Assembly: GCA_944383915.1 (NCBI GenBank)
Contig: CALWRJ010000023.1
Span: 10,274-74,273, forward strand
DNA: 64,000 bases
Direction: 5' to 3'
DNA from: an uncultured Clostridia bacterium
Lineage (GTDB): Bacteria > Bacillota > Clostridia > Christensenellales > UBA1242
In this document: piece by piece, positions 9,112 through 49,514 of the stretch
Numbering within the stretch: position 1 is the first letter of the stretch
How the letters are laid out: each line of letters starts with the position of its first letter
Position numbers and translations under genes: made by a program
Notes under the pieces: generated by a model
Seen by the model: the letters and a program-made list of their open reading frames with translations, nothing else
Database searches by the model: none
Told to the model about the DNA's origin: nothing

Positions 9112-9810
9112 TTTAAAACGCCATAACACCCTATCACATAATGCAATAGTTATATTGATAAATTATTAAAGAGTAGCAAAAATGTATTATTTTTTAAAAC
9201 CTTTTAATTTAACATAATACAACGCACCACACCAAAAATTTAATATATAAAATAATTAAAACCTTACGAACCCACCCAAAATATAAACAAATAAAAGGAG
9301 TTTAAATAATAAATTTTAAATTAAAAAGACTGAAACTAAATTAAAAATTATAAAATTAACAAAACAAATTGCAAATTAGAAAACTTAATCAACAAAAAAT
9401 TAATTAAAAATTAGGAATAACATAATAAAAATTTTAAAAACAAAGTAAATTAGAAAATGAAAATAAATTAGAGAAGTTAAACAAAGTAAATTAGAGAATA
9501 AAATAAACTAGGTAATTAAAGAAATAACACTAAAATAAATAACTAGGTCAATCATAAAAACAAACTAATTGGAGATTATTTGTACAATGCCAAGAAAAAG
9601 GTAAATATTTTGTCCACACCCACTAAATTTTTTAAGAAATTTAGTTTTCGTAAAGGTTAAAAATTACTTTCACACACGGTTATTTAGTGTGTATTTTGTA
9701 TCTTTTTTTATATTTCGTCTAAATTAGGTTTAAAATTTGGAAATTTAACAATAATTGCATATGTAGTTACAATAATTTTTTGGTAAAATTGTCATAGGAG
9801 AAAATGTAAT

Positions 9811-10929
9811 ATGCGTAAATTTTTTATTTTTGGAACAGTCACTTGTTTGATGCTTTCGTGTTTTGTCGGCAGTGCGAATTTATCACCACTTAATGATTTT
9901 GAAACAACCCATCAAGTTATCACTTCATCACCGCTAGCAAGTAACAGTGAAACTTTATTGCAATTAGAAAATCAAGTTGCCACTTCATCACCGCTAGCAA
10001 ATCAAATTGAAATTTCGCCAACGCAAGTAAATGAAATTTCCACTTCACTAGCGCAAATAAGCCAAAGCGGAACATCAACATCAACAAATCAATTTAAAAC
10101 TTCGTTAGCAATCAATCAAAACAAAACCACATCACCGCTAGTAAATTTAAACTCAAGCCAAAGTACCGCACAGAATTCTGTAAATCTTGAAAATGCTAGT
10201 ATAGGCGAAATTTACTATCGAATTGTGAGCGAAAACGCTATTCTTTACCGCGCACCGCTTGAAAGCACGGAAAGTAGCAATGTTTATTTTTGCCTGCCCG
10301 CCACCTATTTTGTGCGTTTCAATAGCACTTTTGACGAAAAATTTTTAAATGTCACCTATCGCGATTTTACAGGCTATGTGCTTGCTGACGATGTCGAACG
10401 CGTTTACTCCACCCCACTCACTCCTTTTGCAAATCAAACTTTTTCGGTGCAAGGAATTGCGAATTTAGTTTTGCGCAGTGAACCTACGACAAGTAGCGAA
10501 TATATCGGCACCATTCCTTTTAACGCAACCGACATTGAATTTTTCGGCGCGATTGAAGGCGAACAAGCCAACAGCGAATTATCTAACCTTTGGTATTTTT
10601 GCAGATACACAAGTTTTGAACAAGGCATTTTAACAGGCTATGTCTATGCTCCACTCACTAACAATCTTACACCACTCGAGCCGAACACCGAAATTGTCGA
10701 AACCGAGCCGAGCGCCGAAGTTAATACTGACGGTGTGCTTGCTCCCGAACTCCAAAGTGGCACTAGCTTTTGGTTAATTATCGGCTTAACTATTCGAGCG
10801 CTTTTACTTTTACTGTTAGTTTTAAAACCTGGAAAGAACAGAAAAAACAAAGTCGCTAAAAGACAAATTGCGAATCTCAACAAACTTTCGCTTCCAGATA
10901 AAACCAACAAAGATGAATTTGATTTTTAA
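9811..10929 (+). CDS. membrane-anchored secreted protein with SH3b-like repeats (372 aa)
   Basis: AGGAG RBS and an N-terminal signal peptide (MRKFFIFGTVTCLMLSCFVGSA). Has S/T/Q-rich repeats (SSPLA) and two SH3b-like segments. Ends with a C-terminal TM helix plus a basic tail. Confidence 0.6.
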   Translation: MRKFFIFGTVTCLMLSCFVGSANLSPLNDFETTHQVITSSPLASNSETLLQLENQVATSSPLANQIEISPTQVNEISTSLAQISQSGTSTSTNQFKTSLAINQNKTTSPLVNLNSSQSTAQNSVNLENASIGEIYYRIVSENAILYRAPLESTESSNVYFCLPATYFVRFNSTFDEKFLNVTYRDFTGYVLADDVERVYSTPLTPFANQTFSVQGIANLVLRSEPTTSSEYIGTIPFNATDIEFFGAIEGEQANSELSNLWYFCRYTSFEQGILTGYVYAPLTNNLTPLEPNTEIVETEPSAEVNTDGVLAPELQSGTSFWLIIGLTIRALLLLLLVLKPGKNRKNKVAKRQIANLNKLSLPDKTNKDEFDF

Positions 10930-10982
10930 TTACTAAATTTATTTGTATTTTGTAAAAATTTGTAAAAATTTGCTATTTTTTA

Positions 10983-11010
10983 GTACTATGCACGGTATTA
11001 TGCATAGTAT
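10983..11010. repeat. inverted pair of the motif (GTACTATGCA ... TGCATAGTAT)
   Basis: GTACTATGCA at 10983-10992 and TGCATAGTAT at 11001-11010, between convergent genes. Confidence 0.8.
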
Positions 11011-11035
11011 TATGCATTATTTAAAGCATATTTTT

Positions 11036-11300
11036 TGTTTTTTAGCCAATTTCCCACCCAAACACACTTCGGCATCGACAAGGTATGATTTTTATTTATT
11101 AGCCAACTTTTGCCTAAACAAATTTCAACATCACCATAAAACTAATTTTTATTTTTAGCCAACCATCTACCCGAACGCACTTCGGCAACGACATAAAACT
11201 AATTGTTGTTTTTGGCAAACTTTCTGCCGAACACACTTAAACATCGACACGGGAAATATTTTTATTTTTAGCCAACTTCCTACCCTTTTGTGTTTTATTA
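11036..11300 (+). repeat. 56-57-bp tandem repeat, about 4.5 units
   Basis: The anchor TTAGCCAA (once TTGGCAAA) recurs at 11042, 11099, 11155, 11212 and 11268. The unit body ...ACACACTTCGGCATCGACA... is degenerate between copies. Confidence 0.8.
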
Positions 11301-11383
11301 TTTCTTAATGCTGATACACCGTGTTTATTACTTGTAAAGAATTATCCTGTAGCAATATAAAAACCACCACTATATTTTACTAA

Positions 11384-11929
11384 CTAGAAAAAGTTTGGCA
11401 CGCGCAACTTCCTAATTCGGTACGGTTGCTTTGGCTCTGGCAAAAATTCTTTTTTCCTTTTTGATGTTGTTTTGAGTAAAAACTTATTATAAATTCGCGC
11501 AAGGGGCAAATTGTTTTTCACAATATTCTCAACATCGATTTTTGAAATATTAATGCTACTTAAATTTTTAATAAACTTATTAAGTGCGTGCCTTAAATAC
11601 GCATTCGCAGTTAGCTGTCCAACATTACGCACAAATGCCAACTGCCCCATACTTAGCCCCTCTATATAATACTGCTTTAAAATTTTCGCGTCTGTATGAT
11701 TGAGTGTGTCAAGCCCCTCCTCAATCACGCACTTTAAAGTCACAAGTTGCTTTTTCTGCTCCATAATATCAATGATACCCTCGATGCCGTCAAGTGTGTA
11801 AAACGGGTCAAGCGTCAAAGTATAACTATTCGCGCAGTACCTGCTTATCGTTTTGTCAAACCGCTTTAAAACTCCGTCAAGCCGAGAGTACACCGAAAAA
11901 ATTGTTCTCGCTAAAATTAAATCATTCAT
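11384..11929 (-). CDS. sigma-70 region-4-like HTH protein (181 aa)
   Basis: The segment LDTLNHTDAKILKQYYIEGLSMGQLAFVRNVGQLTANAYLRHALNKF matches the sigma region 4 / LuxR-type HTH pattern. No region 2 recognised. Confidence 0.4.
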   Translation of the reverse strand: MNDLILARTIFSVYSRLDGVLKRFDKTISRYCANSYTLTLDPFYTLDGIEGIIDIMEQKKQLVTLKCVIEEGLDTLNHTDAKILKQYYIEGLSMGQLAFVRNVGQLTANAYLRHALNKFIKNLSSINISKIDVENIVKNNLPLARIYNKFLLKTTSKRKKEFLPEPKQPYRIRKLRVPNFF

Positions 11930-12152
11930 AATATCCCCCCTATTTGTCAGTTTACAAAAAATCTTTCGTATTTTTGCTTTTGCACTTTTTACAATTATTT
12001 TATTAATTTTGCCCTTTAAATAGACAACTTAAAAAACTTTAATTTTTAGGAAAAATATATAAGTTTAACGAATGAAGGTGAATATACAAAATTGTATCAG
12101 CAACAACCACCACTTAAAAATTTTTAAACGCAAATTTTTTAGTTTAATTTTG

Positions 12153-12410
12153 TTTAAGTTGCGTTTCTTTTATTTTAAATTTTATAAGTCGCACGCTTCT
12201 TTTTATTGTTTCTATAAAAATGTGCTTATGTTTTAAATTGGCTTTTGTTTTAAAATTTTAAAATTTCACATCATCCGTTTTTCAAGTTGGCTTTTGTTTA
12301 AAAATTTTTAAGTTGCACTTTGTTTGTTTTTAAACGGCCAAATTTTTTAAGCTGTTTTGCTTTGCTCGTTTTTTAAGTTGTCTTTCTTTTGTTTAAAATT
12401 TTTCAAGTTG
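12153..12410 (+). repeat. 7 dispersed direct copies of TT(T/C)AAG(T/C)TG in a T-rich spacer
   Basis: Copies at 12153, 12184 (TATAAGTCG), 12281, 12307, 12346, 12372 and 12402, all in the same orientation. Confidence 0.6.
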
Positions 12411-12511
12411 TGCCGATTTTTAAAATTGTTTTTGTGGACATCACTGCACCCCCTTACGAAAGATTTTTTTGCAAACATTCTGTAAATGTTCGAAACTTTC
12501 TCGTACATTTT

Positions 12512-12525
12512 AGAACATTTGTTCG
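12512..12525. promoter_or_regulatory. LexA (Cheo/SOS) box AGAACATTTGTTCG overlapping a putative promoter
   Basis: Matches the Gram-positive consensus CGAACN4GTTCG in 13/14 positions. TATAAT lies at 12531-12536, with a TTTAGA-like -35 overlapping the box. Confidence 0.55.
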
Positions 12526-12595
12526 CATTATATAATATAATTCCTGACAATGTGTGTCAACAATTATTAAAAAGTCGAAAAAATTTTGAAATATA

Positions 12596-12634
12596 TTGAA
12601 TTTTTTTGTCTAATGGCTTAAAATGTGCTATAAT
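12596..12634 (+). promoter_or_regulatory. putative sigma-A promoter(s) of the membrane-protein gene
   Basis: TTGAAT (12596-12601), 17-nt spacer, TAAAAT (12619-12624). There is also an extended -10, TGCTATAAT, at 12626-12634. Confidence 0.4.
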
Positions 12635-12655
12635 ATAGGGTGGAGAAATGAAATT

Positions 12656-14569
12656 ATGAGAAAATTTAAGTCGCGGGTTTTGATTTTTTGGATTTTGCTT
12701 TTAGGGGTGTTGCTGATTTTACCCCCTATTTTCGCGATTTTTCACAATAATACCAGCACGCAAAATGCGATGAGAGCCGTTTTAAGCCTTAAAAATGATA
12801 CTTTACCTATTGAAAATTCGGCTTTATTAAGCGCCAAAAACAGCAATTATGCAGAGTTCACCGCGATAAATCAAACGAACTATTCGCAAAACGCAACCGC
12901 ACGCTCCTTTGACCGCCAATCTATTTCGTTTATGAATGGAGTAGACAGCCTAACGAGTGTAACCGACCTTGCCTACTCTAGCGAAATTCTCTACGCGACT
13001 GACGGGCGCTACATTTGGTCAAATGACGGAACGACCGCGCAGATAATTTTCGAAAACACCGAAGGCACGATTGACGATTTTGTCGTGGTTGGAGATTTGA
13101 TTGTTTACTCAAAAGCCGATTTATACCTTTATGTGCTAGACCTTAACAGTCCGCTCGGCGACACCAACCCCGCAAGCATCACCGAATACTATACGACTTC
13201 CCCCGACCCGATTCGCTTGCCCGATGGACAAAAAAAATTGACCGCGAGTGCGACCGGCGAAATTTTCGTAATTTTCAACAACTTCGTTGCGCGCCTTGAC
13301 AGCGTCACCGCGAGCGCGCCCACCTATCGTTTAAATTATGTAAGCGAACTTTTTACTGATACGGAATTTAGCACGGGCGGGTTTTTCGCGAGTGAAAATG
13401 GAAATAAACTTTGGTACAGCGCGAGCACGGAAATTTTCTGCATCGATTTAGAAAACGCCACGACTAGCCAAACCGATATCGTGGCGAACGCCGAAATTCG
13501 CGAGTTGGCAGTCGATGTGCTTGGAAATATTTTCTACCTTACGGACACCGAGATTTGCAAAAACGACACGACCACCGGAATTGACGATTACACGCAAAAC
13601 GCGGTTTTTGACTTTGCGAGCGGAGCAATTTTCGCGACAAATGGTTCGCAAATTGTGCGAGCGACTGACAATATTGACCAAGATTTTATGACGAATTACA
13701 GCACGCAACCTGCCCCAATCGAGTTGGCGGACATTTCCGCATCCACCCAAATTTTCGAAGTGGTGAAAGTCAACGCGGGCACGAATTTGTACTTTTACAG
13801 TAGCCTTACGACAAGATTAAGCGAGTACGACACGGAGAAAAATCTCCTGCTCCTTTCAAGCGACAACGCCGATTTTTACTACATTTTGGACACAAATTAC
13901 CCTGATGGTAGCGGTTTTATCACAGGTTATATCGAAAAAACCGATGCAACTATTTTGGAAAATTCCACGACCGCCGACACCGCGCGCGTAGTGGTTGCCA
14001 GCACGAAACTTTACATTTTGCCGAGTAGCGTTGCACTTTATGAAAATTACACAGCCGATTTACAAAAAATCACTTATGGGAAAAATTTGACCATTTTATT
14101 TGCCCCAGCCTATCCCACCGACTCGAACGGCGCGACATTTTTCGCTGTTCAAATCGAAAATGACGAAAATGTTTACTATATCGACAGCCGAACCGTTGTT
14201 GGCGTAGAATTTGATAACGATATTCCAAACCAAGTCGTGTACAACACGAGCCTGCGCGCTGATACGATTGTGTATAGCGACCAAGGTTTAACGACCGAGT
14301 GCGACACGATAAAAAAAGGCACGATGGTGGCAATTCTTGAAACCGTTGACGGAGTCGCAAAAATCGAGTACCAACTTTTAAACGAAAATAACGAAGTCAT
14401 CGACACCGCGCAGGGCTACATTCCGCGTTCTTTCCTAAATGACGGAACGCTCAACGCGACTCAAATCGTTGGCATTGTTTTGATGTGCGTGTCGCTCGTA
14501 ATGGCAATTGTCATCGCGGTAGCCCTTCACCAAAACAACAAAAAGAAAAAAAGCCAAGCACTCGAATAG
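12656..14569 (+). CDS. large membrane protein with C-terminal SH3b-like domains (637 aa)
   Basis: ORF-track ORF 12623-14569. I prefer the ATG at 12656, downstream of GGTGGAG. Has an N-terminal TM, a long extracytoplasmic region, SH3b-like segments near the C-terminus, then a TM helix and a KKKK tail. Same overall architecture as ORF 9811-10929. Confidence 0.6.
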   Translation: MRKFKSRVLIFWILLLGVLLILPPIFAIFHNNTSTQNAMRAVLSLKNDTLPIENSALLSAKNSNYAEFTAINQTNYSQNATARSFDRQSISFMNGVDSLTSVTDLAYSSEILYATDGRYIWSNDGTTAQIIFENTEGTIDDFVVVGDLIVYSKADLYLYVLDLNSPLGDTNPASITEYYTTSPDPIRLPDGQKKLTASATGEIFVIFNNFVARLDSVTASAPTYRLNYVSELFTDTEFSTGGFFASENGNKLWYSASTEIFCIDLENATTSQTDIVANAEIRELAVDVLGNIFYLTDTEICKNDTTTGIDDYTQNAVFDFASGAIFATNGSQIVRATDNIDQDFMTNYSTQPAPIELADISASTQIFEVVKVNAGTNLYFYSSLTTRLSEYDTEKNLLLLSSDNADFYYILDTNYPDGSGFITGYIEKTDATILENSTTADTARVVVASTKLYILPSSVALYENYTADLQKITYGKNLTILFAPAYPTDSNGATFFAVQIENDENVYYIDSRTVVGVEFDNDIPNQVVYNTSLRADTIVYSDQGLTTECDTIKKGTMVAILETVDGVAKIEYQLLNENNEVIDTAQGYIPRSFLNDGTLNATQIVGIVLMCVSLVMAIVIAVALHQNNKKKKSQALE

Positions 14570-14830
14570 CAGTAGAAAAATAAAAACAACACTTTTTTAA
14601 ATAACAGTAGAAAAATGCTTTATCGAAAAACAAAGCATACTCAAATATAGAAAACTTACACTTTCGCAAACAACAATAAAAATTGCTCTTATGAATATCA
14701 AGATAAAAAACTTTTTCTTGAATAACTAAAAACACTTTCTCGATTAGTAAAATTACGCTCTATCGAATAACAAAAAAGCACTATCTTGAATAGCAGTAGA
14801 AATGCTTTCTCGAATAGCGAAATAAAAAAA
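14557..14830 (+). repeat. about 11 degenerate ~24-bp tandem units (core CTnTCGAATAnCA...AAAAA)
   Basis: Recurrent CTCGAATAGCAGTAGAAA, ATCGAATAACAAAAAA, CTTGAATAGCAGTAGAAA and similar, starting at the stop codon of ORF 12656-14569. Confidence 0.55.
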
Positions 14831-14865
14831 ACGCCGTTTGTTTTAAATGGCGTTTTTCTTTTTAA
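14829..14865 (+). terminator. putative intrinsic terminator
   Basis: Stem AAACGCC / GGCGTTT with a 13-nt loop, followed by a T-run. Confidence 0.45.
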
Positions 14866-15316
14866 AATTTTATGAAAGGCAAATAATAACATTGTCGGTA
14901 CTTAAAAAATTTGTATTAACAAAAAAACAATCAAAGCAAGCAAACAAAATAAATGTAGTGTTTTACCAACTGAACAATTAATAACAACGCAGAAAAGACT
15001 GTGTTTTTTTACTAATAAAATAAACGATAACAATGCATAATAAAAGCAAGCAAACAAAAAAGTTTTTGACAAAACAAAAATTAAGGCAGTGCTTTTTAAT
15101 AAAAATCACCGATACGAAATTAAAAAAGCAAAGTTAGTGCTTTGCTAAGAAATTATTAAAACAAAAGGCGTACTTTTTAAAGTACAATTCGCAGGCTTTT
15201 AAATTTGATAAGTAACAACTATTTTTTTACTTTCCCAAAAATCAAGAGAGAGGATATAAAAATAATTTATTATTTTATTTATTTTTTTATTAAGAAGCCG
15301 TATTATTAGTAATGCG

Positions 15317-15476
15317 TGTGGAAATGTGGAAAACTTTAATTCTCGCCTTCCCTTTTTGCCTTAGGTTAGCCAAAATTAGAACATATGTTTGAAAACTTTT
15401 TCTGTGGATAACTATGTGGACAACCACCCAAAACTTGTGGAAAAGATGTGGAAAAGTAGTAAAAAAGTGTGGAAAA
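15317..15476 (-). promoter_or_regulatory. cluster of 7 DnaA boxes in the same orientation
   Basis: Plus-strand boxes: TGTGGAAAT 15317, TGTGGAAAA 15325, TGTGGATAA 15403 (perfect complement of TTATCCACA), TGTGGACAA 15415, and TGTGGAAAA at 15436, 15447 and 15468. Confidence 0.8.
15378..15391. promoter_or_regulatory. LexA-like box AGAACATATGTTTG (weaker)
   Basis: Two mismatches to CGAACN4GTTCG. Located inside the DnaA-box cluster. Confidence 0.35.
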
Positions 15477-15504
15477 CTCGTTTTTTTATGTATTTTTTGA
15501 AAAT

Positions 15505-15681
15505 TTAAAATTTTTTGCCCTTATTTTGCCCTTTTTTCTCTCGGCGAAACCAATCTAAATAGCGCAAATTTTCAATCTGAAATTGCAAATTTCCATTCGT
15601 GCAATTTGCAATTAGAGCGTTGTATTTTTTGCGTGTGCCGCTATAAAAATTCGCACCATTTTGCCAAAATTTTGTTTTCAT
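15505..15681 (-). CDS. possible small basic protein (58 aa), not in the ORF track
   Basis: Hand translation: MKTKFWQNGANFYSGTRKKYNALIANCTNGNLQFQIENLRYLDWFRREKKGQNKGKKF. AGGGG lies 6 nt upstream of the ATG, with a TATAAT-like -10 further upstream. Ends about 30 nt from the DnaA-box cluster. Confidence 0.3.
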   Translation of the reverse strand: MKTKFWQNGANFYSGTRKKYNALIANCTNGNLQFQIENLRYLDWFRREKKGQNKGKKF

Positions 15682-15845
15682 AACCGCCCCTGCTCTTTAA
15701 AAATTTTCGTTTTTTAGTACTTAATATATAATATATTATACGAAGTTTAGTTTTAAGTCAAATGATTTATTAAGCCAAAAATGTTAAAAGGTGCGAAAAA
15801 TTGTGAAAAAACTGTAATTTTCATCGTTTTTTCGCGAAATTTTAG

Positions 15846-15949
15846 GTACTATGCAACAAATTTACAAAAATAATGAGGTACTATGCAATATATTTGGGAA
15901 AATTGAAGTACTATGCAATAAATTCGCAAAATATTGGGATACTATGCAA
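15846..15949 (+). repeat. 4 direct copies of GTACTATGCAA spaced 32/30/31 bp (three helical turns)
   Basis: Copies at 15846, 15878, 15908 and 15938 (GATACTATGCAA). This is the reverse-complement orientation of the TGCATAGTAC motif. Lies 120-220 nt upstream of ylbJ. Confidence 0.85.
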
Positions 15950-16068
15950 CTAAATTAACTTTTTATAATATTTTTAGGTATAAATTTGTTTCAAAATTAA
16001 AAATAATAAACCGCTAGTTTAAGTCTCCGCGGTGTTATATTTATTAAATTTTTAAAATAAAATACTAT

Positions 16069-17061
16069 ATGAAAGTTTTGTTTGTAAAAATACGGTACAT
16101 CGGGCTTGCGGTGTTGATTGTTTTTATTATGCTCGCCCTTGTACTTAACCCCGAAAGGTATATGCAGTCCGTCACGAACGGGCTAATGGTTTGGCTCTAT
16201 TCGGTACTCCCCGCGCTGTTCCCCTTCTTTTTCTTTTCGGGGCTACTAATTAAACTACACGTTGTGGACAATCTCGGCGCGCGTTTTAGCAAGTTTACGC
16301 AAAAAGCATTCCACTGCCCAGGCTCGAGCGGAATAATTTACCTATTAAGCATAGTTTCTGGCTACCCAGTCGGCGCAAAAATTGCGAGCGAGATGTACAA
16401 AAGTGGCGCGCTGACTCGCGAACAAGTTATGCGGGTGAACGCGTTTGCCTCGACTTCGGGACCCCTTTTTATTGTTGGCGCGGTTGGTGTTGGAATGTTT
16501 TTAGACCACACTTGCGGAATAATAATGTTGATTTCTCATTACATCGGCGCACTACTTAACGGGCTATTATACCGCAATTACGGGTACAAAAAGGAGAAAC
16601 TCGAAGCGCCATATGTACTTAACAAGAACACCGAGGACATTATGTCTGCGACAATGTACGACTCGATTATTTCGATTTTATTGGTCGGCGGATACATTGC
16701 AATTTTCTTTATTTTGATTGATATTTTAGGAAATTTTGGCATTTTAAGCGTAATTTCGCAATTTTTTAGCGTAATTTTAAACTTTTTGGGGCTGGACTCG
16801 TCACTTTCTGTTGGACTAGCGAGTGGGATTTTCGAAGTCACGCGTGGGTGTTTGGACTTGTCGCAAGCGGGCGCGAGCCTAAAAGTCATTATTCCCCTGG
16901 CGTGCGCGCTCATCTCGTGGGGTGGAATTAGTATTCACTTCCAGTCGCTCACCTTTTTATCGAAGTGCGGTATCAAAAAACGCGTCTTTTTCCTGCAAAA
17001 ATTCACGCAAAGCATAATTAGTGGGCTCGTTTGTTTAGTATTTGTGCTTTTGTTTTTGTAG
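16069..17061 (+). CDS. ylbJ: sporulation integral membrane protein YlbJ-like (nucleoside-recognition/gate domain)
   Basis: Polytopic membrane protein. The pattern LPALFPFFFFSGLL...SGYPVGAKIA...TSGPLFIVGAVG matches the YlbJ family from recall. Confidence 0.6.
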   Translation: MKVLFVKIRYIGLAVLIVFIMLALVLNPERYMQSVTNGLMVWLYSVLPALFPFFFFSGLLIKLHVVDNLGARFSKFTQKAFHCPGSSGIIYLLSIVSGYPVGAKIASEMYKSGALTREQVMRVNAFASTSGPLFIVGAVGVGMFLDHTCGIIMLISHYIGALLNGLLYRNYGYKKEKLEAPYVLNKNTEDIMSATMYDSIISILLVGGYIAIFFILIDILGNFGILSVISQFFSVILNFLGLDSSLSVGLASGIFEVTRGCLDLSQAGASLKVIIPLACALISWGGISIHFQSLTFLSKCGIKKRVFFLQKFTQSIISGLVCLVFVLLFL

Positions 17062-17174
17062 GTTTTTAATTTGCTTTATTGTTAGTTTTTGTGTGTTTTT
17101 GTTGTTTTTTATTTGTATTTTTAGTTTTATTTTGTTTTTTGCTACTTTTTTATCTTGTTCTGTTTATTTATATA

Positions 17175-17506
17175 GGCGAAAAAATTTTCGCTACGCGAAA
17201 AACATTTTCGCACTCAAAACAAAATGCTTATTCGCTACGCTCAAATTAGCAATTAGCAGGTAGCAATTAGCAATTATGGAGTTATTACTTAAATATTTAG
17301 GTATTCCTGCCTTAATTACTAATTAATTAAAGTTTTTTTTGTTACGCGCGGTTCGGCGGGGATAGAGCCCCCGCAGGCTCAATACGCCTTCGGCGAGTAC
17401 AATACTCTTTTATTATACCCAGCCTTAACTGCTAACTGCTAATTGCTAATTGCTAATTTGAGCGTAGCGAATAAGACTGCTAATTGTTAATTGCTAATTG
17501 TAAATT
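17175..17506. repeat. mosaic intergenic element L1
   Basis: GCGAAAA..TTTTCGC hairpins. AATTAGC-type array 17244-17275 is inverted relative to the GCTAATT-type array 17427-17458. The flanks CTTATTCGCTACGCTC / GAGCGTAGCGAATAAG are also inverted. GC cassette at 17343-17400. Preceded by a ~110-nt T/G-rich tract. Confidence 0.9.
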
Positions 17507-21602: not shown

Positions 21603-21805
21603 AATTAGTGCCGTAGGACACTAATTATTAATTAGCAATTAGCAATTAGCAATTAGCAGTTAAGGAAGGTATTTTCTAAATATAAAATTATTTTTGGAAA
21701 TAACTCCTTAATTCAAAATTTCTAATTCAAAATTCAAAATTGGAGCGTAAGCGAGTAGGCTTCGCGCGCACGCGCCCATTAACTGCTAATTGCTAATTGC
21801 TAATT
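21603..21805. repeat. mosaic intergenic element L2
   Basis: (AATTAGC)x4 at 21630-21657 is inverted relative to AACTGCTAATTGCTAATTGCTAATT at 21781-21805. AATTCAA-type array at 21710-21741. GC junction GTAGGCTTCGCGCGCACGCGC. Confidence 0.9.
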
Positions 21806-26798: not shown

Positions 26799-26956
26799 CC
26801 CATTATCTCCTTTTAATCTTATGATATGAAAATATTTTTTTCAAAATTAGCAATTAGCAATTAGCAATTAGCAGTTAAGGAAGTTATTTCCTAAATAATA
26901 ATTTATTAATTTCAACCACAATTCCTAATTACTAATTATTAATTATTTTATTTTTT

Positions 26957-27030
26957 GTCCTACGCGGACAGCGGTGCGGTAGACCGCACAAGTCATTAGC
27001 GTATGCAAGCATACGCGAAAGTCCGTAAAT
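26957..27030 (+). repeat. GC hairpin cassette c1 (74 nt), identical to 45057-45130
   Basis: GTCCTACGCGGAC, GTGCGGTAGACCGCAC, CATTA, GCGTATGC-AA-GCATACGC, GAAAGTCCGTAAAT. Confidence 0.9.
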
Positions 27031-27090
27031 ATTATTGCTTTTCTTTTTTTACTATACCCAGCCATAACTGCTAATTGCTAATTGCTAATT

Positions 27091-27156
27091 CGCGTGCAAC
27101 GCGTAAGCCCCCGCTGGCTCATTAGCGTATGCAAGCATACGCGAAAGTCCGTAAAT
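27091..27156 (+). repeat. GC hairpin cassette c3
   Basis: CGCGTGCAACGCG hairpin, then TAAGCCCCCGCTGGCTCATTA, then the same GCGTATGC-AA-GCATACGC hairpin and the GAAAGTCCGTAAAT tail. Confidence 0.9.
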
Positions 27157-27261
27157 AATATTGCTTTACTTTATTTTGTTTTTGATTAATTAAAAAAGGA
27201 AGTTTATTTATCTATTAAAAAGCTTCGCGCGCACGCGCACATTAACTGCTAATTGCTAATT

Positions 27262-31955: not shown

Positions 31956-32352
31956 AATTAGCAATTAGTAATTAGCAATTAGCAGTTAAGGATGAAATTA
32001 ATTTTTTATCCTTTTTTATTGTTACCAATCTCGTTTAAATTAGCAATTAGCAATTAGCAGTTAAGGAGTTATTTCTTTAAATACTTATAATCTAATAGAT
32101 TTCAGCCTTAATTCCTAATTACTAATTCCTAATTCCTAATTATTTTGCACTCCGTGCGGGGCGGGGATAGAGCCCCCGCTGGCTCATTAGCGAACAAAGT
32201 TCGCGTTCGCTCCGCTCAAATTAGCAATTAGAAATTAGGAATTAGGAATTAATGAATTTATTTATCTTAAATAATATATTTTTTAATATTCCTTCCTTAT
32301 TACTAATTACTAATTTGGAAGGTTTCCTTCCTTAACTGCTAATTGCTAATTC
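31956..32352. repeat. mosaic intergenic element L5 (upstream of rsmH)
   Basis: AATTAGC/AATTAGT arrays at 31956-31985 and 32039-32060. CCTAATT arrays at about 32109-32141. GC cassette at 32147-32205. AATTAGG array at about 32219-32250. GGAAGGTTTCCTTCC. GCTAATT array ending about 32351. The CGCAAC-TTC-GTTGCG hairpin (31941-31955) abuts the rsmH RBS. Confidence 0.9.
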
Positions 32353-33619: not shown

Positions 33620-33692
33620 CCTTATTGTTTTATTATACCAATTTACCAACTCATTTGCAAGTGTTTTCTCTTTTAAAACGCAATAAAGCAAT

Positions 33693-33747
33693 TGCATAGT
33701 ACTAAATAAAGTTTGCATAGTACTTGCGTAATACCTATGCATAGTAC
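33693..33747 (+). repeat. 3 copies of TGCATAGTAC (spacing 21 and 24 nt)
   Basis: Copies at 33693-33702, 33714-33723 and 33738-33747. Confidence 0.9.
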
Positions 33748-37959: not shown

Positions 37960-37981
37960 TTTAAAGCGCCTGCGCTTTAAA
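37960..37981 (-). terminator. terminator hairpin at the topoisomerase A-subunit stop
   Basis: TTTAAAGCGC-CT-GCGCTTTAAA, overlapping the stop codon at 37977-37979. Confidence 0.6.
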
Positions 37982-40445
37982 TTTTATTGACAAACCCTTC
38001 TGTTATTGGCGTTTCGACTTTGTTTAGTGGCGCGCCCTTCTTTTCGCGCGGGATAATCTCGATTTTTTCACTATTTATGCCGACATTTTCCATTTTTGTT
38101 TTAAGAATAACATCGACAGGATTTGTAATGCAAGTTGCAAAGATGATTTTATCCTCTTTATTTAATAGAATTGAGCGCACACCCTTACGATACCTAGGAA
38201 GTTTGTCGATTTTTGCGAGAATTACGCGTTTTGCGACACCATTTTCGGTAACGATGACCATTTCGCCCTCGTCTGAAGCGAGCCCAGCGAACACACAGTA
38301 ATCGCCGTCATAGAGGCTAACACCTTTAACACCGCCCGAAATACGCCCTTGAAGTGGAATATCGTCTTTCGTTGCAAAAAGGACTTGTCCGTACGCAGTT
38401 GCAAAAATCATATCGTTGCCCTCGGTATCAAATTCGACATCGATAACAGTATCATCGTCCTTAATTTTAACCGCCTGAATATAACTTTTCACCGCGTTAT
38501 ACTCTTTAAATGCAGTTTTCTTTACCATACCGCCACGCGTAAAGAATAGCAAATTGCGGTTGTCGTCCTCGCTAAATTCGGCTGGAATTAGCGCGACAAT
38601 TTTTTCGTCCATTCCAAAATCGTGGAAAATCTCGCGGGGCGAAGTTCCTTTGTCGCGGAATTTGTTCGGCTTTAAATCGGACACATTAAAGCGGATACAG
38701 TATCCCGCGCTCGTGAACGCCAAAATGTCCGCATCGGACTTTGTGTGTAGTAGTATCGTATGCACTTGCGACAGGCTTCCGCCGTTCTTAAACTCTTTAC
38801 TTGCGCCACTAAAAGTCTTGCTTTCAAAGAGTTTGAGATTGCCTTCGGCAGTTACGCCTAATACTACAGGCACTGCCACATCGACCTTAACTGTTTCGAC
38901 TTCAACTTCGTCCATTTTGTCTATAATTTGAGTACGGCGCGGGTTTTTGTATCTCTTTTTAATGTCCAAAATCTCGTCTTTAACAGTTTGGTATTGAAGC
39001 GCGGTGCTTTTTACTATGGCTGTTAATTTATCTATTAAAATTTTTAGTTCTTTGAGTTCGTCCGTAATCTTGTTTACTTCAAGGTGCGTTAGTCTTGCTA
39101 GACGCAAATCAAGAATCGCCTGCGCCTGCCTTTCGGACAAGACAAAACGCTCTTTAAGTTTCATTTTTGCATCGGCAGTTGATACCGATTTTTTAATGAT
39201 TTTAACGACTTCGTCAATATTTTTTATAGCAATAAGCAAGCCTTCTAAAATGTGGCTACGCTCTTTTGCAACTTCGAGGTCATACTTGCTCCTACGCAAG
39301 ATAACTTCGCGCTGGTACTCGACATAATAACTAATGATTTCCATTAAACCAAGAGTTTTTGGCTTTCCGCCCGCGATTGCGACCATATTTATAGCAAAAG
39401 AACACTTCATATCCGTGCTTTTTAGCAAGTTGTCTATGATTGCGTTTACATTGCCTTCTTTTTTAATAGTGATGACCGCGCGCATACCATTTCTATCGGA
39501 CTCGTCACGGACTTCGGATATAAATGAGAGCGGTCCGCCGTTCTTTTCCTCGCTAAGTTCTACGATATTTTGTAATAGTTTTGCCTTGTTTACCTGGTAC
39601 GGAAGTTCGGTAATAACTATATTTTTCTTGTCGTTCTTGCCTTCCTCGATGTGATACTTTGCGTACATAATAATTTTGCCCTTCCCTGTTTCGTACGCCT
39701 TAGCAAGTTCGTCAATAGTCATAAGCGCGCCCGTTGGGAAGTCTGGACCTTTAATGATTTTCATCATTTGCTTTAAAGTGATTTTAGGGTTATCTATGTA
39801 GGCAACGACACCGTCAATTACTTCTGCCAAATTGTGTGGCGGAATGTTTGTAGCAAGTCCAACGGCAATTCCACTTGCGCCGTTTACGAGCAAATTTGGA
39901 AAACGCCCGGGGAGCATATCGGGCTCTTTTGTCGTGTCGTCAAAGTTTAGGCTCCACTTTACCGTGTCTTTGTCCAAATCTCGCAAAAGTTCGAGCGCAA
40001 GCGGAGCAAGGCGCGCCTCGGTATAACGCATTGCAGCGGCGGAGTCCCCGTCATTACTACCAAAGTTTCCGTGCCCCTGCACCAAAATCTCGCGCATATT
40101 GTGCGGTTGTGCCATACGGACCATTGCGTCATAAACCGATGTATCGCCGTGCGGGTGGTACTTACCTAGGCATTCACCGACAATTCTCGCAGACTTACGG
40201 AACGGCTTATCAGGGTCGAGCCCCAAGTCCATCATCGCGTACAAAATTCGGCGTTGCACGGGTTTTAGTCCGTCCTCGACACGCGGAAGCGCGCGGTCAA
40301 GAATTACAAACTCGCTGTATGGAATCATACTATTGTGGAGCACTTCGTCCATATCGCACTCAATTATTCCGCCAGACTCGGCAACCTCGCCCGTATTTAA
40401 CTTTTTGTCTTTTAATTCTTTGTTTTTATCATTTTCTTTTTTCAT
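37977..40445 (-). CDS. type IIA topoisomerase subunit A (GyrA/ParC family; probably topoisomerase IV ParC-like)
   Basis: Motifs [20 protein letters not shown] and [10 protein letters not shown] (catalytic Tyr region). I found no GyrA-box (QRRGGKG) in the C-terminal domain, and there is no dnaA/dnaN/recF context. Confidence 0.85.
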
Positions 40446-40542
40446 AAAAATTTACCTTAAAGTTTTTTGTTTTTGGTATTTTAATTTGTTTGCTTTGTTA
40501 TTTGTTTTTTTATTTTTATTTGCTTTGTTATTTGTACTTTTT

Positions 40543-40938
40543 GGCGAAAAGATTTTTGACTTCGCAAAAAACATTTTCGCACATAAAACAAAATTTTTAA
40601 ATTTTCATCCTTAATTCCTAAATCCTAATTCCTAATTATATGCACTCCGTGCGGGGCGGGGATAGAGCCCCCGCTGGCTCAATATGCCTACGGCGAGTAC
40701 TTTTACTATATCAAATCTATCCTGTTTGCACTTATCGAATATTTATTGTAAAAAGGATTTATATTTCTAATTATTATTAAAAGGATTTTTATCCTTAATT
40801 CCTAATTTTCTAATTACTAATTTAAGCGTAGCCGAATGGCGAAGCGTAAAGCCTTAATTACTAATTTCTAATTACTAATTACTAATTTGGAAGGTTTCCT
40901 TCCGCAATCCCTAAGTCCTAATTCCTAATTCCTAATTC
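40543..40938. repeat. mosaic element L9 between the topoisomerase B and A subunit genes
   Basis: GCGAAAA hairpins. CCTAATT arrays. GC cassette at 40642-40700. Junction TAAGCGTAGCCGAATGGCGAAGCGTAAAGCC. ACTAATT arrays. GGAAGGTTTCCTTCC. Preceded by an ~80-nt T/G-rich tract. Confidence 0.9.
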
Positions 40939-40959
40939 ATTTTGAACTGCGATCAAAAT
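40939..40959 (-). terminator. short AT-rich hairpin just after the B-subunit stop
   Basis: ATTTTGA-ACTGCGA-TCAAAAT. Confidence 0.35.
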
Positions 40960-42918
40960 TTAATGTGGCTCAAAATTATCCACCTTATTAAAGTTTGCGT
41001 GCTCTGTAATATACGCCTTTCTAGCCTCAATATTGTCCCCCATAAGCGTTGTAATCATAAGTTCGGCATTCGCAGCGTCCTCCAAGGTTACGCGCATTAG
41101 CGAACGCGTTTTCGGGTCCATAGTCGTATCCCACAACTGCTCGGGGTTCATTTCACCCAAACCTTTATAGCGCTGAATTTGATAACCTTTCCCCACGCGC
41201 TCTAAAACCTCTGGCAACTCGGCATCACTATACACATATTCGACATAATCGCGTTTTTGCACGCGGTAAAGTGGCGGAAGTCCAATGTAGACATTGCCAT
41301 TTAGCACGAGTTCTTTCATATACCTAAAAAAGAATGTTAGAAGTATCGCTCGAATGTGCGCACCGTCTTGGTCGGCATCACTTAAAATGATAACCTTATG
41401 ATATTTTAAGTTTGTCAAATTAAAGTCCTCGCCGATACCTGTACCGAGTGCGCTAATAATTGTGCGAATTTCCTCGTTGGCTAGCACCTGCGCAAGCCTT
41501 TTTTTCTCGGCATTAAGTGGTTTTCCGCGAAGTGGCAAAATCGCCTGGAATGACCTATCTCGCGCCATTTTTGCGCTCCCGCCTGCCGAATCACCCTCCA
41601 CGATAAACAATTCATTTAGTTCGGGCTTTTTCCCAGAACAACTGCTCAATTTCCCTACAAGGTTGCTATTTTCAATACTGTTTTTCGCGCGCGTAATCTC
41701 TTTTGCCTTGCGCGCAGCCTCACGCACTTTCGCCGCGTTCTTTGCTTTGTTAATCGCAAGTTCTAAAACGCTCTTGTTCGCGCCCTTATCAAAATATTCC
41801 ATCAACTTTTGGTAGCACAGCGCCTCGACTTCGGGCTTGATTTCGGTATTTCCAAGTTTCGTCTTTGTCTGCCCTTCAAATTGCACATTCCTAGCCTTAA
41901 TCGCAAGCACGGTGGTTAGCCCTTCGCGGAAGTCCTCGGCAGTTAGCGTAATATCTTTATCTTTTATTAGATTGTTGCGCTTGCCAAGGTCGGTGAATGC
42001 GCGCGTAATCGCACTTTTGAGCCCTGCCTCGTGAGTTCCGCCCTCGCTTGTTGGAATATTGTTTACATAACTAAAAGTATTTTCAACATAACCGTTCGTG
42101 TACTGCATCGCGCAAGCCACTTTTACTAAATCACTGCTCGCTTCAAAGTAAATCGGTGTTTGGTGCTCAACGGACTTGTTTTCATTTAAGTATTTAACAA
42201 AATCACTAAGTCCGCCGTCATACTTAAATTCGAGAGTGAACGGTTCGCCGTTTTCGAGTTTGCGCTCGTCTACTAAAATAATGCGTATTCCTTTATTTAA
42301 AAATGCAATCTCACGAAGTCTACGCGATACCGTGTCCAAATCAAAAACGATATCCTCAAAAACGCGGTCGTCTGGCATAAAGCGAACAAGCGTACCTGTT
42401 CTATCGGTTTTGCCCACCTTTTTAAGCGGAGCAACAGGAACACCACTTTTTATTTTATTGCCACTCCCCTTGCTCTCAAACTGCATCTCGTACTCGTATC
42501 CTTCACGGAAAACGGAAACAGTTAGCCAGCGAGAAAGCGCATTCGTTACCGATGCACCTACACCGTGTAGCCCGCCCGAGAACGAATAGTTTTCGTTGTT
42601 AAATTTTCCGCCCGCGTGCAACTGCGTAAACACAACCTCGACACCGCTCACTTTCATCTGCGGGTGAATGTCTACCGGTACTCCGCGCCCGTTGTCCTCG
42701 ACTTGCGCGCTTCCGTCCTCTTCAAGTGTAACTTTTATCGTATCGCCGTAACCGTTCGCGATTTCGTCTACCGAATTATCTACAATCTCCCATAACAGAT
42801 GATGAAGCCCTTTTGGACCTGTCGTACCAATGTACATACCAGGACGCATACGCACCGCGTCCAAGCCCTCCAATACTACAATATCTTTTGAATCATAACT
42901 TTTCGCCACAATAAACAC
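40960..42918 (-). CDS. type IIA topoisomerase subunit B (GyrB/ParE family; probably ParE-like)
   Basis: GHKL ATPase motifs (LHHLLWEIVDNSVDE, GGLHGVG) and Toprim motifs (EGDSAGG, DADQDGAHI). Alternative GTG start at 42909, 8 nt after AAAGGGG. Confidence 0.85.
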   Translation of the reverse strand: MFIVAKSYDSKDIVVLEGLDAVRMRPGMYIGTTGPKGLHHLLWEIVDNSVDEIANGYGDTIKVTLEEDGSAQVEDNGRGVPVDIHPQMKVSGVEVVFTQLHAGGKFNNENYSFSGGLHGVGASVTNALSRWLTVSVFREGYEYEMQFESKGSGNKIKSGVPVAPLKKVGKTDRTGTLVRFMPDDRVFEDIVFDLDTVSRRLREIAFLNKGIRIILVDERKLENGEPFTLEFKYDGGLSDFVKYLNENKSVEHQTPIYFEASSDLVKVACAMQYTNGYVENTFSYVNNIPTSEGGTHEAGLKSAITRAFTDLGKRNNLIKDKDITLTAEDFREGLTTVLAIKARNVQFEGQTKTKLGNTEIKPEVEALCYQKLMEYFDKGANKSVLELAINKAKNAAKVREAARKAKEITRAKNSIENSNLVGKLSSCSGKKPELNELFIVEGDSAGGSAKMARDRSFQAILPLRGKPLNAEKKRLAQVLANEEIRTIISALGTGIGEDFNLTNLKYHKVIILSDADQDGAHIRAILLTFFFRYMKELVLNGNVYIGLPPLYRVQKRDYVEYVYSDAELPEVLERVGKGYQIQRYKGLGEMNPEQLWDTTMDPKTRSLMRVTLEDAANAELMITTLMGDNIEARKAYITEHANFNKVDNFEPH

Positions 42919-48097: not shown

Positions 48098-49514
<1,417 letters not shown>

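What the first reader, a model, noticed from the sequence alone, without database searches (positions are those of the whole stretch)
15317..15476. Seven co-oriented DnaA boxes in a 1.5-kb gene-free region with no dnaA nearby
The boxes are one perfect TTATCCACA complement, one TTGTCCACA, four TTTTCCACA and one ATTTCCACA. They sit within 160 bp of the 14570-16068 non-coding region, flanked by T/A-rich DNA. No dnaA, dnaN or rpmH is in the window. Nearly all core genes to the right (dcw, topoisomerase, ribosomal and glycolytic operons) are on the minus strand. In Firmicutes that argues the replication fork travels leftward through them, so this site is unlikely to be the chromosomal oriC. Alternatives:
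- A DnaA-titrating or regulatory cluster, like the B. subtilis DnaA-box clusters or E. coli datA.
- An origin belonging to the adjacent foreign segment.
- A DnaA-regulated promoter for the small ORF 15505-15681 or for ylbJ.
Basis: partly seen in the sequence, partly recalled or inferred. Interest (0 to 1): 0.7.

Follow-up and report, generated by a model that had tools for sequence, protein, structure and literature searches.

The report
Orphan replication origin beside a prophage
A complete copy of the DNA module that bacteria use to start chromosome replication sits here without its usual partner genes, at the edge of virus-derived DNA, which suggests a mobile element that borrows the host's own starter protein.

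Summary
The seven co-oriented DnaA boxes are real and far beyond chance: 7 in 160 bp, against at most 2 in 300 simulated windows. They are more than a box cluster. Together with their left flank they form a complete origin-unwinding module:
- an AT tract at 15254-15294, the least stable 40-mer of the whole window
- four DnaA-trios
- a 4-nt GC spacer
- an overlapping box doublet
- a helically phased box array, with start-to-start spacing of 12, 21, 11 and 21 bp

A search for the array spacing alone returned 35 metagenome loci. In 25 of them the same doublet, spacer and trios lie upstream, and the module sits between dnaA and dnaN.

The window has no dnaA or dnaN. There is no GC-skew or gene-strand switch here. 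Relatives carry scpA, scpB and dacB at this position and have no boxes.

The module lies about 550-700 bp inside the right end of a foreign segment of at least 16 kb. That segment carries podophage head and packaging genes and lacks the host's ubiquitous heptamer repeats.

Best reading: an orphan dnaA-dnaN-type origin carried by a mobile element. It is probably that element's DnaA-dependent origin. A DnaA sink or a relic remain possible. It is a new variant of a known kind, and its function is untested.

The parts
15254..15294 (.). AT-rich DNA unwinding element (DUE) candidate
   Evidence: Almost entirely A+T. It is the least stable 40-mer of the whole 64-kb window by nearest-neighbour free energy (-35.4 kcal/mol, rank 1). 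It lies 7 nt from the trios, on the side the basal unwinding system (BUS) layout predicts.
15301..15312 (+). Four DnaA-trios, TAT TAT TAG TAA (central A in each; the two next to the boxes match the consensus 3'-GAT/AAT-5')
   Evidence: Read. It meets the BUS search rule (NAN) x >=3 (PMC8287927). The same position holds 5-8 TAG/TAA trios in 25 dnaA-dnaN origins.
15313..15316 (.). 4-nt GC-rich spacer (TGCG) between trios and boxes
   Evidence: The equivalent spacer in the dnaA-dnaN loci is the 4-nt GGCC/GGGC/GCCC. The paper gives 4 bp on average.
15317..15333 (-). Overlapping DnaA-box doublet, TGTGGAAATGTGGAAAA (boxes 1 and 2, 8-bp offset)
   Evidence: The same 8-bp-offset doublet (TGTGGATATGTGGATAA) occurs in 11 of the 25 canonical origins, and a 9-bp offset in the rest.
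15403..15455 (-). Phased four-box array (boxes 3-6), start-to-start spacing 12, 21, 11 bp
   Evidence: The identical spacing was recovered in 35 metagenome loci and 3 viral contigs.
15468..15476 (-). Seventh box (TTTTCCACA), 21 bp after box 6
   Evidence: It keeps the helical phasing.
15505..15681 (-). 58-aa orphan ORF, probably not a gene
   Evidence: Its only match in the protein collection is itself. No Pfam or NCBIfam hit.
15846..15949 (+). Four copies of GTACTATGCAA at 30-32 bp spacing; not origin iterons
   Evidence: The 11-mer occurs 22 times in the window against 1.1 expected. It forms arrays upstream of TerL and at 33.7 and 55.0 kb. In relatives it is found only in or at the edge of the related prophage, never upstream of ylbJ.
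16028..16068 (+). Conserved ylbJ promoter -10 and leader; the junction with foreign DNA lies just to its left (about 16000-16030)
   Evidence: Alignment with four relatives shows conservation only in the last ~40 bp before the ATG. blastn homology starts at 16046-16057.
16069..17061 (+). ylbJ (sporulation integral membrane protein); the first host gene to the right
   Evidence: TIGR02871, E 9e-70, below the curated cut-off. Pfam Gate domain. Relatives are 69-81% identical.
299..8910 (-). Podophage head and packaging module: two major head proteins, portal, TerL
   Evidence: PHROGs and Pfam hits. tblastx to 113 viral contigs related by TerL. TerL is at most 30% identical to any cultured phage terminase; the best matches include T7-like podophages.
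9811..10929 (+). 372-aa membrane protein, phage-associated
   Evidence: Homologues lie divergently next to TerL in viral contigs L009, L010, L011, L250 and L253.
11384..11929 (-). 181-aa protein resembling sigma-70 region 4; candidate phage late regulator
   Evidence: phrog_36 'transcriptional regulator', E 1.4e-5. Weak Sigma70_r4 hit. Otherwise an orphan.
12623..14569 (+). 648-aa protein with a C-terminal hydrophobic segment (probable membrane anchor); orphan cargo gene
   Evidence: No family hit and no homologue.
14827..14857 (+). Intrinsic terminator-like hairpin after the 648-aa gene

Best explanation
The cluster is a complete, orphan copy of the replication-origin module that normally lies between dnaA and dnaN (the B. 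subtilis incC / C. difficile oriC2 type, called the 'basal unwinding system', BUS). Here it has neither gene beside it. It lies a few hundred bp inside the right end of a foreign, podophage-derived insertion of at least 16 kb that abuts ylbJ.

Inferred mechanism:
1. Host DnaA-ATP binds the helically phased boxes 3-7 and the box doublet.
2. From the doublet, DnaA oligomerises across the 4-nt GC spacer onto the four DnaA-trios.
3. This melts the adjacent AT tract at 15254-15294, where the host helicase would be loaded.

The most likely role is a host-DnaA-dependent vegetative origin for the mobile element. While the element is integrated, the module would also act as a strong DnaA-binding site.

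What is shown: the anatomy, the match to bona fide dnaA-dnaN origins, the absence of dnaA and dnaN, the non-oriC chromosomal context, and the foreign nature of the surrounding DNA.

What is inferred: DnaA binding, unwinding, and use by the element.
For: Anatomy
- There are seven boxes with at most 2 mismatches, all on one strand. Boxes 3-7 are spaced 12, 21, 11 and 21 bp.
- On the side that the box orientation predicts lie the doublet, the TGCG spacer, the trios TAT TAT TAG TAA, and the AT tract.
- This satisfies the published BUS search rule: a box with at most 2 mismatches, a spacer of 0-16 bp, and at least 3 NAN trios (PMC8287927).
- The AT tract is the single least stable 40-mer in 64 kb.

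Independent comparison
- A pattern encoding only the four-box spacing found 35 metagenome loci.
- In 25 of them, features that were not in the query appear in the same order: a doublet with 8-9 bp offset lying 34-45 nt upstream, a ~4-nt GC spacer, and 5-8 trios.
- Wherever the contig reaches far enough, these 25 loci have a DnaA-motif ORF on one side and a ~385-aa ORF on the other (some short contigs end before one of the two genes). The ORFs checked in L095, L096 and L114 were confirmed as DnaA and DnaN by Pfam.
- One of these loci (L095, 32% GC) has a DnaN closest to Firmicute beta clamps.

Orphan status
- No dnaA or dnaN, and no remnant of either, is in the window.
- Both flanking genes have vanished while the module is intact. 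That argues for selection on the module, or for a very precise capture.

Foreign context
- Relatives have M50 peptidase, scpA, scpB, ytfJ and dacB directly left of ylbJ, with intergenic regions of 211-810 bp and no boxes.
- Phage genes run from 299 to about 12 kb.
- The host-specific (AATTAGN)n heptamer arrays occupy 15 intergenic regions between 17 and 61 kb. Only one weak 2-mismatch match (15603) falls within 1-17,243.
- The 11-mer array that bounds the region on the right occurs, in relatives, only with the related prophage.

Precedent
- Viral contigs carry phased DnaA-box arrays with the same spacing next to TerL (L090/L129, L092) or next to an integrase (L091).
- Many other viral contigs carry multi-box clusters.
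Against: - None of the TerL-related viral contigs (the 80 fetched of 113) has a DnaA-box cluster in the sequence available, and neither do the related prophages in L003 and L004. The module is therefore not a conserved part of this phage lineage. However, no close relative could be read as far as 6 kb upstream of TerL.
- The whole 11-16 kb stretch is orphan DNA, so no conservation test is possible.
- The left end of the insertion is outside the window. It is therefore not proven that the module lies inside the mobile element rather than in a strain-specific host island next to it.
- Only four trios are present, and two are non-consensus (TAT).
- The gap between doublet and array is 69 nt, against 34-45 nt in the canonical loci. 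The reverse-oriented boxes that follow the canonical arrays are absent.
- For C. difficile, unwinding in vitro needed both oriC1 and oriC2 (PMC7561715). An isolated oriC2-type module may therefore be insufficient.
- No binding or replication data exist.
Confidence: 0.4

Rival explanations
1. The module is a DnaA sink or regulator. It does not fire. Instead it titrates DnaA or changes its nucleotide state, like the B. subtilis DnaA-box clusters or E. coli datA. This would delay host initiation, to the benefit of either the prophage or the host.
For: There are seven good boxes in phased array outside oriC. B. subtilis has six such clusters, and deleting them causes early initiation (PMC3245932 abstract). 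In C. difficile in vitro, an isolated oriC2-type module did not unwind without oriC1.
Against: Titration needs only boxes. Here the trios, the GC spacer and the most unstable AT tract of the window are all kept, in the exact register of true origins. The cluster is not conserved in four related genomes.
Confidence: 0.2
2. The module is a non-functional relic. A piece of a Clostridial dnaA-dnaN intergenic region was picked up by illegitimate recombination, or by a packaging or transduction accident. It persists by chance in fast-evolving junk DNA.
For: The surrounding 11-16 kb is orphan, repeat-ridden DNA with no homologues. The module is absent from related phages and hosts. The longer gap and the two weak trios could be early decay.
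Against: No trace of the dnaA or dnaN coding sequence remains on either side. Yet every element of the 220-bp module is intact and in register. A recent, imprecise capture should have left gene fragments. An old capture should have eroded the boxes.
Confidence: 0.17
3. The module is an active second chromosomal origin, or a recently relocated one.
For: It has all the sequence features of an origin. Skew and gene orientation record only long-term history, so a very recent change would be invisible.
Against: GC skew is negative on both sides. Ribosomal, dcw and gyrase genes to the right would be replicated head-on. The syntenic locus in relatives is mid-replichore, between scpAB and the dcw cluster, with no switch.
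Confidence: 0.05
4. The boxes are a DnaA-regulated promoter, for the small ORF, for ylbJ, or for a short leftward transcript. This would be like sda in B. subtilis.
For: A sigma-70-like site overlaps the doublet (TCCACA-17-AATAAT, minus strand, 15330-15302). A terminator-like hairpin follows at 15146-15127.
Against: Promoter-like sites are no more frequent here than in shuffled sequence (10 against 7.8). The 58-aa ORF is an orphan, and the boxes lie downstream of it. The ylbJ promoter is conserved close to its ATG, and relatives have no boxes. No Rfam family matches.
Confidence: 0.05

Closest known systems
dnaA-dnaN intergenic origin with basal unwinding system (B. subtilis incC; C. difficile oriC2)
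   Same: - Co-oriented boxes. B. subtilis incC also has seven (PMC6669920).
- A tandem box pair next to a short GC spacer, DnaA-trios and an AT-rich DUE.
- The same element order and the same 12/21/11 array spacing as in 25 loci where the module lies between dnaA and dnaN.
   Different: - No dnaA or dnaN beside it, and no oriC1 partner in view.
- It lies in phage-derived DNA in mid-replichore.
- Only 4 trios.
- A 69-nt gap instead of 34-45 nt.
- No reverse-oriented boxes after the array.
B. subtilis DnaA-box clusters (DBCs) and E. coli datA
   Same: A dense cluster of DnaA boxes away from oriC that could titrate or inactivate DnaA (PMC3245932).
   Different: As far as I know, those clusters are not described as having trios or an unwinding element, and they are conserved chromosomal loci. 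This one carries a full unwinding module and is absent from relatives.
Plasmid and phage origins that use host DnaA together with their own initiator (P1 oriR, pSC101, F, RK2; from general knowledge)
   Same: A mobile element recruiting host DnaA through DnaA boxes at its origin.
   Different: Those origins pair a few DnaA boxes with iterons and a Rep gene. Here there is no Rep gene. The nearby direct repeats belong to a dispersed motif and are not iterons. The layout is that of a chromosomal origin.
Secondary oriC-like region of Pseudomonas (oriCII)
   Same: An extra oriC-like DnaA-box region in a chromosome that binds DnaA (PMC13438810 abstract).
   Different: oriCII sits upstream of gidA and regulates that operon. 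The module here has no conserved neighbouring operon and lies in foreign DNA.

Membership tests
BUS / dnaA-dnaN-type origin module (sequence architecture) | A DnaA box with at most 2 mismatches, oriented toward the trios, usually as a tandem pair | tested here: met
   TTTTCCACA has 1 mismatch and ATTTCCACA has 2. They are at 15317-15333 and read toward 15312.
BUS / dnaA-dnaN-type origin module (sequence architecture) | A spacer of 0-16 bp followed by at least 3 trinucleotides with a central A (DnaA-trios) | tested here: met
   The spacer is TGCG. The trios are TAA, TAG, TAT and TAT at 15301-15312. The better box lies 12 bp from the first trio, within the typical 10-13 bp.
BUS / dnaA-dnaN-type origin module (sequence architecture) | An AT-rich unwinding element next to the trios | tested here: met
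   15254-15294 is the least stable 40-mer of the window.
BUS / dnaA-dnaN-type origin module (sequence architecture) | The same upstream box array as in genuine dnaA-dnaN origins | tested here: met
   The 12/21/11 spacing is shared with 25 origins that lie beside dnaA and dnaN. The gap is longer (69 nt against 34-45 nt) and the reverse boxes are absent.
BUS / dnaA-dnaN-type origin module (sequence architecture) | DnaA- and ATP-dependent strand separation | not testable with these tools
   This needs purified DnaA and a strand-separation or P1-nuclease assay.
Functional chromosomal oriC of this genome | A switch of GC skew and of gene orientation at the site | tested here: not met
   Skew is -0.09 to the left and -0.11 to the right. 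Core genes to the right are on the minus strand.
Functional chromosomal oriC of this genome | Adjacency to dnaA or dnaN, as is usual in Firmicutes | tested here: not met
   Neither gene, nor any remnant, is present in 64 kb.
Functional chromosomal oriC of this genome | Conservation at the syntenic locus in relatives | tested here: not met
   L002-L005 have no box cluster upstream of ylbJ, and scpA, scpB and dacB are its neighbours.
DnaA-titrating cluster (DBC / datA type) | Several DnaA boxes clustered outside oriC | tested here: met
DnaA-titrating cluster (DBC / datA type) | An effect on initiation timing, or on the DnaA-ATP level | not testable with these tools
   This needs deletion or ChIP experiments.
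Iteron-type plasmid or phage origin | Origin-specific iterons next to the DnaA boxes | tested here: not met
   The four direct repeats at 15846-15949 belong to an 11-mer found 22 times across the window, including upstream of TerL and in host intergenic regions.
Iteron-type plasmid or phage origin | An adjacent Rep initiator gene | tested here: not met
   No Rep-like family was found among the ORFs from 9 to 16 kb. The nearest ORF is a 58-aa orphan.
DnaA-regulated promoter (sda-like) | Boxes positioned upstream of the promoter of a conserved gene | tested here: not met
   The boxes lie downstream of the orphan ORF and about 590 bp from the ylbJ ATG. The conserved ylbJ -10 element is about 35 bp from the ATG.

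The most novel reading that the evidence does not exclude
A temperate podophage-like element encodes no replication initiator of its own. Instead it carries a captured, fully formed chromosomal-type origin (phased box array, doublet, trios and DUE). After excision it would replicate as an 'oriC minichromosome' under the host's DnaA cell-cycle control. While integrated, it would act as a strong DnaA-binding site or a potential ectopic origin. The phased DnaA-box arrays found beside TerL or integrase genes in unrelated viral contigs would then mark a wider, undescribed phage strategy.
Probability: 0.3. Interest if true: 0.75.

Novelty: new variant of a known kind. Interest (0 to 1): 0.6.

Why it matters
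Origins of the dnaA-dnaN type are regarded as a chromosomal hallmark. Mobile elements that use DnaA normally add their own Rep protein and iterons.

A complete unwinding module without dnaA or dnaN, sitting in phage-derived DNA, would matter in two ways. If it fires, it would be a natural 'oriC plasmid or phage' in Clostridia. If it only binds DnaA, it would be a mobile modulator of host initiation. Either way it offers a compact, natural test substrate of about 220 bp for what is sufficient for DnaA-dependent unwinding in a Firmicute.

The by-product is also useful. The same array spacing, doublet offset, spacer and trio layout recurs in origins from genomes of 32-69% GC, which gives a sharper signature for origin prediction.

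The limits are real. This is a single occurrence, no relatives carry it, and no functional data exist.

Tried and rejected
1. Iteron-type origin. The four GTACTATGCAA repeats looked like iterons. They turned out to be a motif dispersed through the window, and there is no Rep gene.

2. The small ORF 15505-15681 as an sda-like gene. It is an orphan, and the boxes lie downstream of it.

3. Decayed dnaA or dnaN in the flanks. tblastn with DnaA and DnaN proteins found nothing.

4. Homology of 14570-16068 to known phages or plasmids. None was found.

5. Homologues of the neighbouring 648-aa and 181-aa proteins, to reach related loci. Only self-hits came back. Exact-protein look-ups returned only contigs under 2 kb or nothing, so the 148.7-kb source contig and the left end of the insertion could not be read.

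6. The window's exact box pattern in metagenomes, and the doublet plus spacer in viral contigs. Both gave 0 hits.

7. A viral-contig search with the 372-aa protein. No relatives were found.

8. RNA families. Nothing reached threshold.

9. A doublet-only pattern in viral contigs. It was mostly chance matches; only a few had trios (L141, L238) and their context was ambiguous.

10. Mis-assembly at the junction. Independent ENA contigs are 100% identical over 15448-17271. The link from there leftward to the phage genes rests on this record alone.

Full report
**Observation**

They are ATTTCCACA (15317), TTTTCCACA (15325, 15436, 15447, 15468), TTATCCACA (15403) and TTGTCCACA (15415). Exact TTNTCCACA occurs 12 times in the window, and six of those fall within 152 bp here. 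In 300 first-order Markov simulations, no 160-bp stretch held more than two such sites; the observed number is seven.

The 14570-16068 stretch has only short AT-rich ORFs. It holds the dcw cluster, gyrB/gyrA, L21-Prp-L27 and glycolytic genes, mostly on the minus strand. There is no dnaA or dnaN, by Pfam or by tblastn with DnaA and DnaN proteins from the retrieved dnaA-dnaN loci.

**Anatomy beyond the boxes**

Boxes 3-7 start 12, 21, 11 and 21 bp apart, so they lie on one face of the helix. Boxes 1 and 2 form an overlapping doublet (TGTGGAAATGTGGAAAA, 8-bp offset).

Immediately to the left of the doublet, on the side that the box orientation points to, come three further elements:
- TGCG, a 4-nt GC spacer (15313-15316).
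- TAA, TAG, TAT, TAT, four trinucleotides with a central A (15301-15312).
- After 6 nt, an A+T tract at 15254-15294.

This is the layout of the 'basal unwinding system' defined for B. subtilis and used to scan bacterial origins. That definition is a box with at most 2 mismatches, a spacer of 0-16 bp (typically 10-13 from the better box, including a weaker second box and about 4 GC-rich bp), and at least 3 NAN trios (PMC8287927; trio polarity checked against the C. difficile example in PMC7561715). The AT tract is the least stable 40-mer of the entire 64-kb window by nearest-neighbour energy.

**Independent test against real origins**

I searched public metagenome contigs with a pattern that encodes only the four-box spacing: TGTGGAHAA-N3-TGTGGAHAA-N12-TGTGGAHAA-N2-TGTGGAHAA. 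It returned 35 loci.

In 25 of them, features that were not in the query appear in the same order as in the window:
- a box doublet with an 8- or 9-bp offset, 34-45 nt upstream of the array
- a ~4-nt GC spacer
- 5-8 TAG/TAA trios
- AT-rich DNA

Wherever the contig reaches far enough, these loci have a ~450-aa ORF with DnaA motifs on the array side and a ~385-aa ORF on the AT-rich side (a few short contigs end before one of the two genes). Pfam confirmed Bac_DnaA, Bac_DnaA_C and DnaA_N for the L096 ORF, and the three beta-clamp domains for the L095, L096 and L114 ORFs.

The loci span 32-69% GC. The 32% GC locus (L095) has a DnaN closest to the beta clamps 3t0p, 7ybd and 4tr6. From memory, these are from Clostridia and Bacilli.

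The window's cluster is therefore, element for element, a dnaA-dnaN intergenic origin (incC/oriC2 type) that lacks both genes. It differs in four ways: only four trios, of which two are TAT; a 69-nt gap; a fifth same-strand box; and no reverse-oriented boxes after the array.

**Not the chromosome's origin**

GC skew is negative on both sides of the site: -0.09 for 1-16 kb and -0.11 for 16-64 kb.

Seven related genomes were found through YlbJ. Four of them are 69-81% identical and are uncultured Clostridia or Christensenella MAGs. In these, ylbJ is preceded by an intergenic region of 211-810 bp and then by M50 peptidase, scpA, scpB, ytfJ, dacB and rluB. All are on the minus strand with negative skew, and there is no DnaA-box cluster. 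The locus is natively mid-replichore.

**Context: foreign, phage-derived DNA**

- From 299 to 8910 the minus strand encodes two major head proteins, a portal and TerL. These are related to 113 viral contigs.
- The 372-aa gene at 9811-10929 has homologues next to TerL in those contigs.
- The 181-aa gene at 11384-11929 resembles a sigma-region-4 phage regulator.
- The 648-aa gene and the non-coding stretch have no relatives anywhere.
- Homology to the relatives' chromosome resumes only about 12-40 bp before the ylbJ ATG, where a conserved -10 element lies.

Two further observations argue that 14570 to about 16030 is not native intergenic DNA.
- First, this genome's (AATTAGN)n heptamer arrays occupy 15 intergenic regions between 17.2 and 60.8 kb. 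Only one 2-mismatch match (15603) falls within 1-17.2 kb, although that stretch contains about 3.5 kb of non-coding DNA.
- Second, the four GTACTATGCAA repeats at 15846-15949 belong to a motif that, in L003 and L004, occurs only within or at the edge of their related prophage.

Independent ENA contigs are identical over 15448-17271, so the junction is not an artefact of this one assembly.

One caveat remains. The left end of the insertion is outside the window, and the 148.7-kb source contig could not be retrieved.

**Is the module part of this phage lineage?**

No fetched TerL-related viral contig, and neither of the L003/L004 prophages, shows a DnaA-box cluster. However, the close relatives end 0.1-4 kb upstream of TerL, whereas the module here is 6.4 kb upstream. 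The test is therefore weak.

Phage-borne DnaA-box arrays do exist. The same four-box spacing occurs in three viral contigs:
- 240 bp upstream of TerL in a 36-kb contig (L090, which is the same contig as L129; its TerL is 32% identical to the window's)
- 1.8 kb from TerL in L092
- just 3' of an integrase gene in L091

Many other viral contigs carry 4-10 co-oriented boxes. I found no paper describing chromosomal-type origin modules in phages.

**Interpretation**

The anatomical conclusion is secure; I put it at about 0.9. The module is an orphan dnaA-dnaN-type origin, it is not the chromosome's origin, and it lies in or at the edge of phage-derived DNA.

Function is inferred.
- Both flanking genes have disappeared without trace, yet every element of the 220-bp module is intact and in register. 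This favours selection on the module over a decaying relic.
- The retention of trios and DUE is unnecessary for titration, so it favours an unwinding (origin) role over a pure DnaA sink.
- The visible 16 kb of the element encodes no recognisable initiator.

I therefore rank the readings as follows:
- a host-DnaA-dependent origin of the mobile element: 0.40
- a DnaA sink or regulator: 0.20
- a relic: 0.17
- a second or relocated chromosomal origin: 0.05
- a DnaA-controlled promoter: 0.05

Three points weigh against the leading view. The module is absent from related phages. The C. difficile in vitro work found a requirement for both oriC1 and oriC2. No conservation or expression data exist.

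**Novelty**

This is a new variant of a known kind. The module itself is textbook; its orphan, mobile-element context is not.

Noticed in passing
window 250-272, 8905-9111, 10983-11011, 15846-15949, 33692-33747, 54997-55073, 57760-57770: The 11-mer GTACTATGCAA occurs 22 times against 1.1 expected. It forms same-strand arrays with 20-32 bp periods upstream of genes, both in the phage part (6-7 copies before TerL, the last one containing the TerL ATG) and in host intergenic regions. One site is a perfect 16-bp palindrome, TGCATAGTACTATGCA (55041-55057). It is probably the binding site of an unidentified regulator.
   Followed up: partly
window 15844-15862 (+) and 8899-8917 (-): The first repeat upstream of ylbJ shares a 19-nt identical stretch (aggtactATGcaacaaatt) with the TerL ribosome-binding and start region. 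This hints at duplication or recombination between these sites.
   Followed up: no
window 17244-60754 (15 intergenic regions, e.g. 17244-17506, 21630-21805, 26845-27261, 31956-32351, 48092-48377): Tandem heptamer arrays (AATTAGC/AATTAGG)n give 116 matches against 1.9 expected. They often occur as inverted arrays around a GC-rich hairpin and fill most host intergenic regions. They are absent from the related genomes L003-L008 (a single match in L002) and essentially absent from window 1-17,243 (one 2-mismatch match at 15603). This is a species-specific dispersed repeat family of unknown function.
   Followed up: partly
L095-L126 (25 metagenome loci): dnaA-dnaN intergenic origins from genomes of 32-69% GC share one precise layout: trios, a ~4-nt GC spacer, a box doublet offset by 8-9 bp, a gap of 34-45 nt, four boxes spaced 12/21/11, and then (as seen in the sequences) usually 3-4 reverse-oriented boxes before the dnaA 3' end. 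This is a sharper signature for origin prediction than box counts alone.
   Followed up: partly
L090/L129 (array 240 bp upstream of TerL), L092, L091 (next to an integrase), and L133, L159/L186, L165, L167, L169, L171, L174/L178, L211, L212, L244: Many IMG/VR viral contigs carry phased or multi-copy DnaA-box clusters. Several lie at the boundary between the early or lysis genes and the packaging genes, or near contig ends. I could not rule out host flanks of proviruses for some of them.
   Followed up: partly
L003 15148-20937 and L004 12880-20346: Two related genomes carry a related podophage-like prophage (holin, DUF7934, internal virion protein, head proteins). It sits on the other side of the ylbJ-DUF4364-TSCPD block, within about 3-5 kb of the insertion site seen in the window. 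This small neighbourhood appears to be an insertion hot spot.
   Followed up: partly
window 676-1863 and 1883-3058: Two tandem paralogous major head protein genes (both phrog_14242). The related viral contig L253 has only one.
   Followed up: no
window 14548-14830 and 11039-11285: There are degenerate ~35-bp repeats that look derived from the 3' end of the 648-aa ORF (AGCACTCGAATAGCAGTAGAAA). There are also 57/113-bp tandem repeats downstream of the 372-aa gene. The foreign segment is unusually rich in decaying tandem duplications.
   Followed up: no
window 15330-15302 (-) and 15146-15127 (-): A sigma-70-like promoter overlaps the box doublet, and a terminator-like hairpin lies about 160 nt downstream on the same strand. 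Together they could define a short transcript running through the DUE. No Rfam match was found, and promoter-like sites are not enriched in this region.
   Followed up: partly
window 37977-42918: gyrB-gyrA lie together on the minus strand without the dnaA-dnaN-recF genes that precede them in many Firmicutes. murG lies upstream instead.
   Followed up: no
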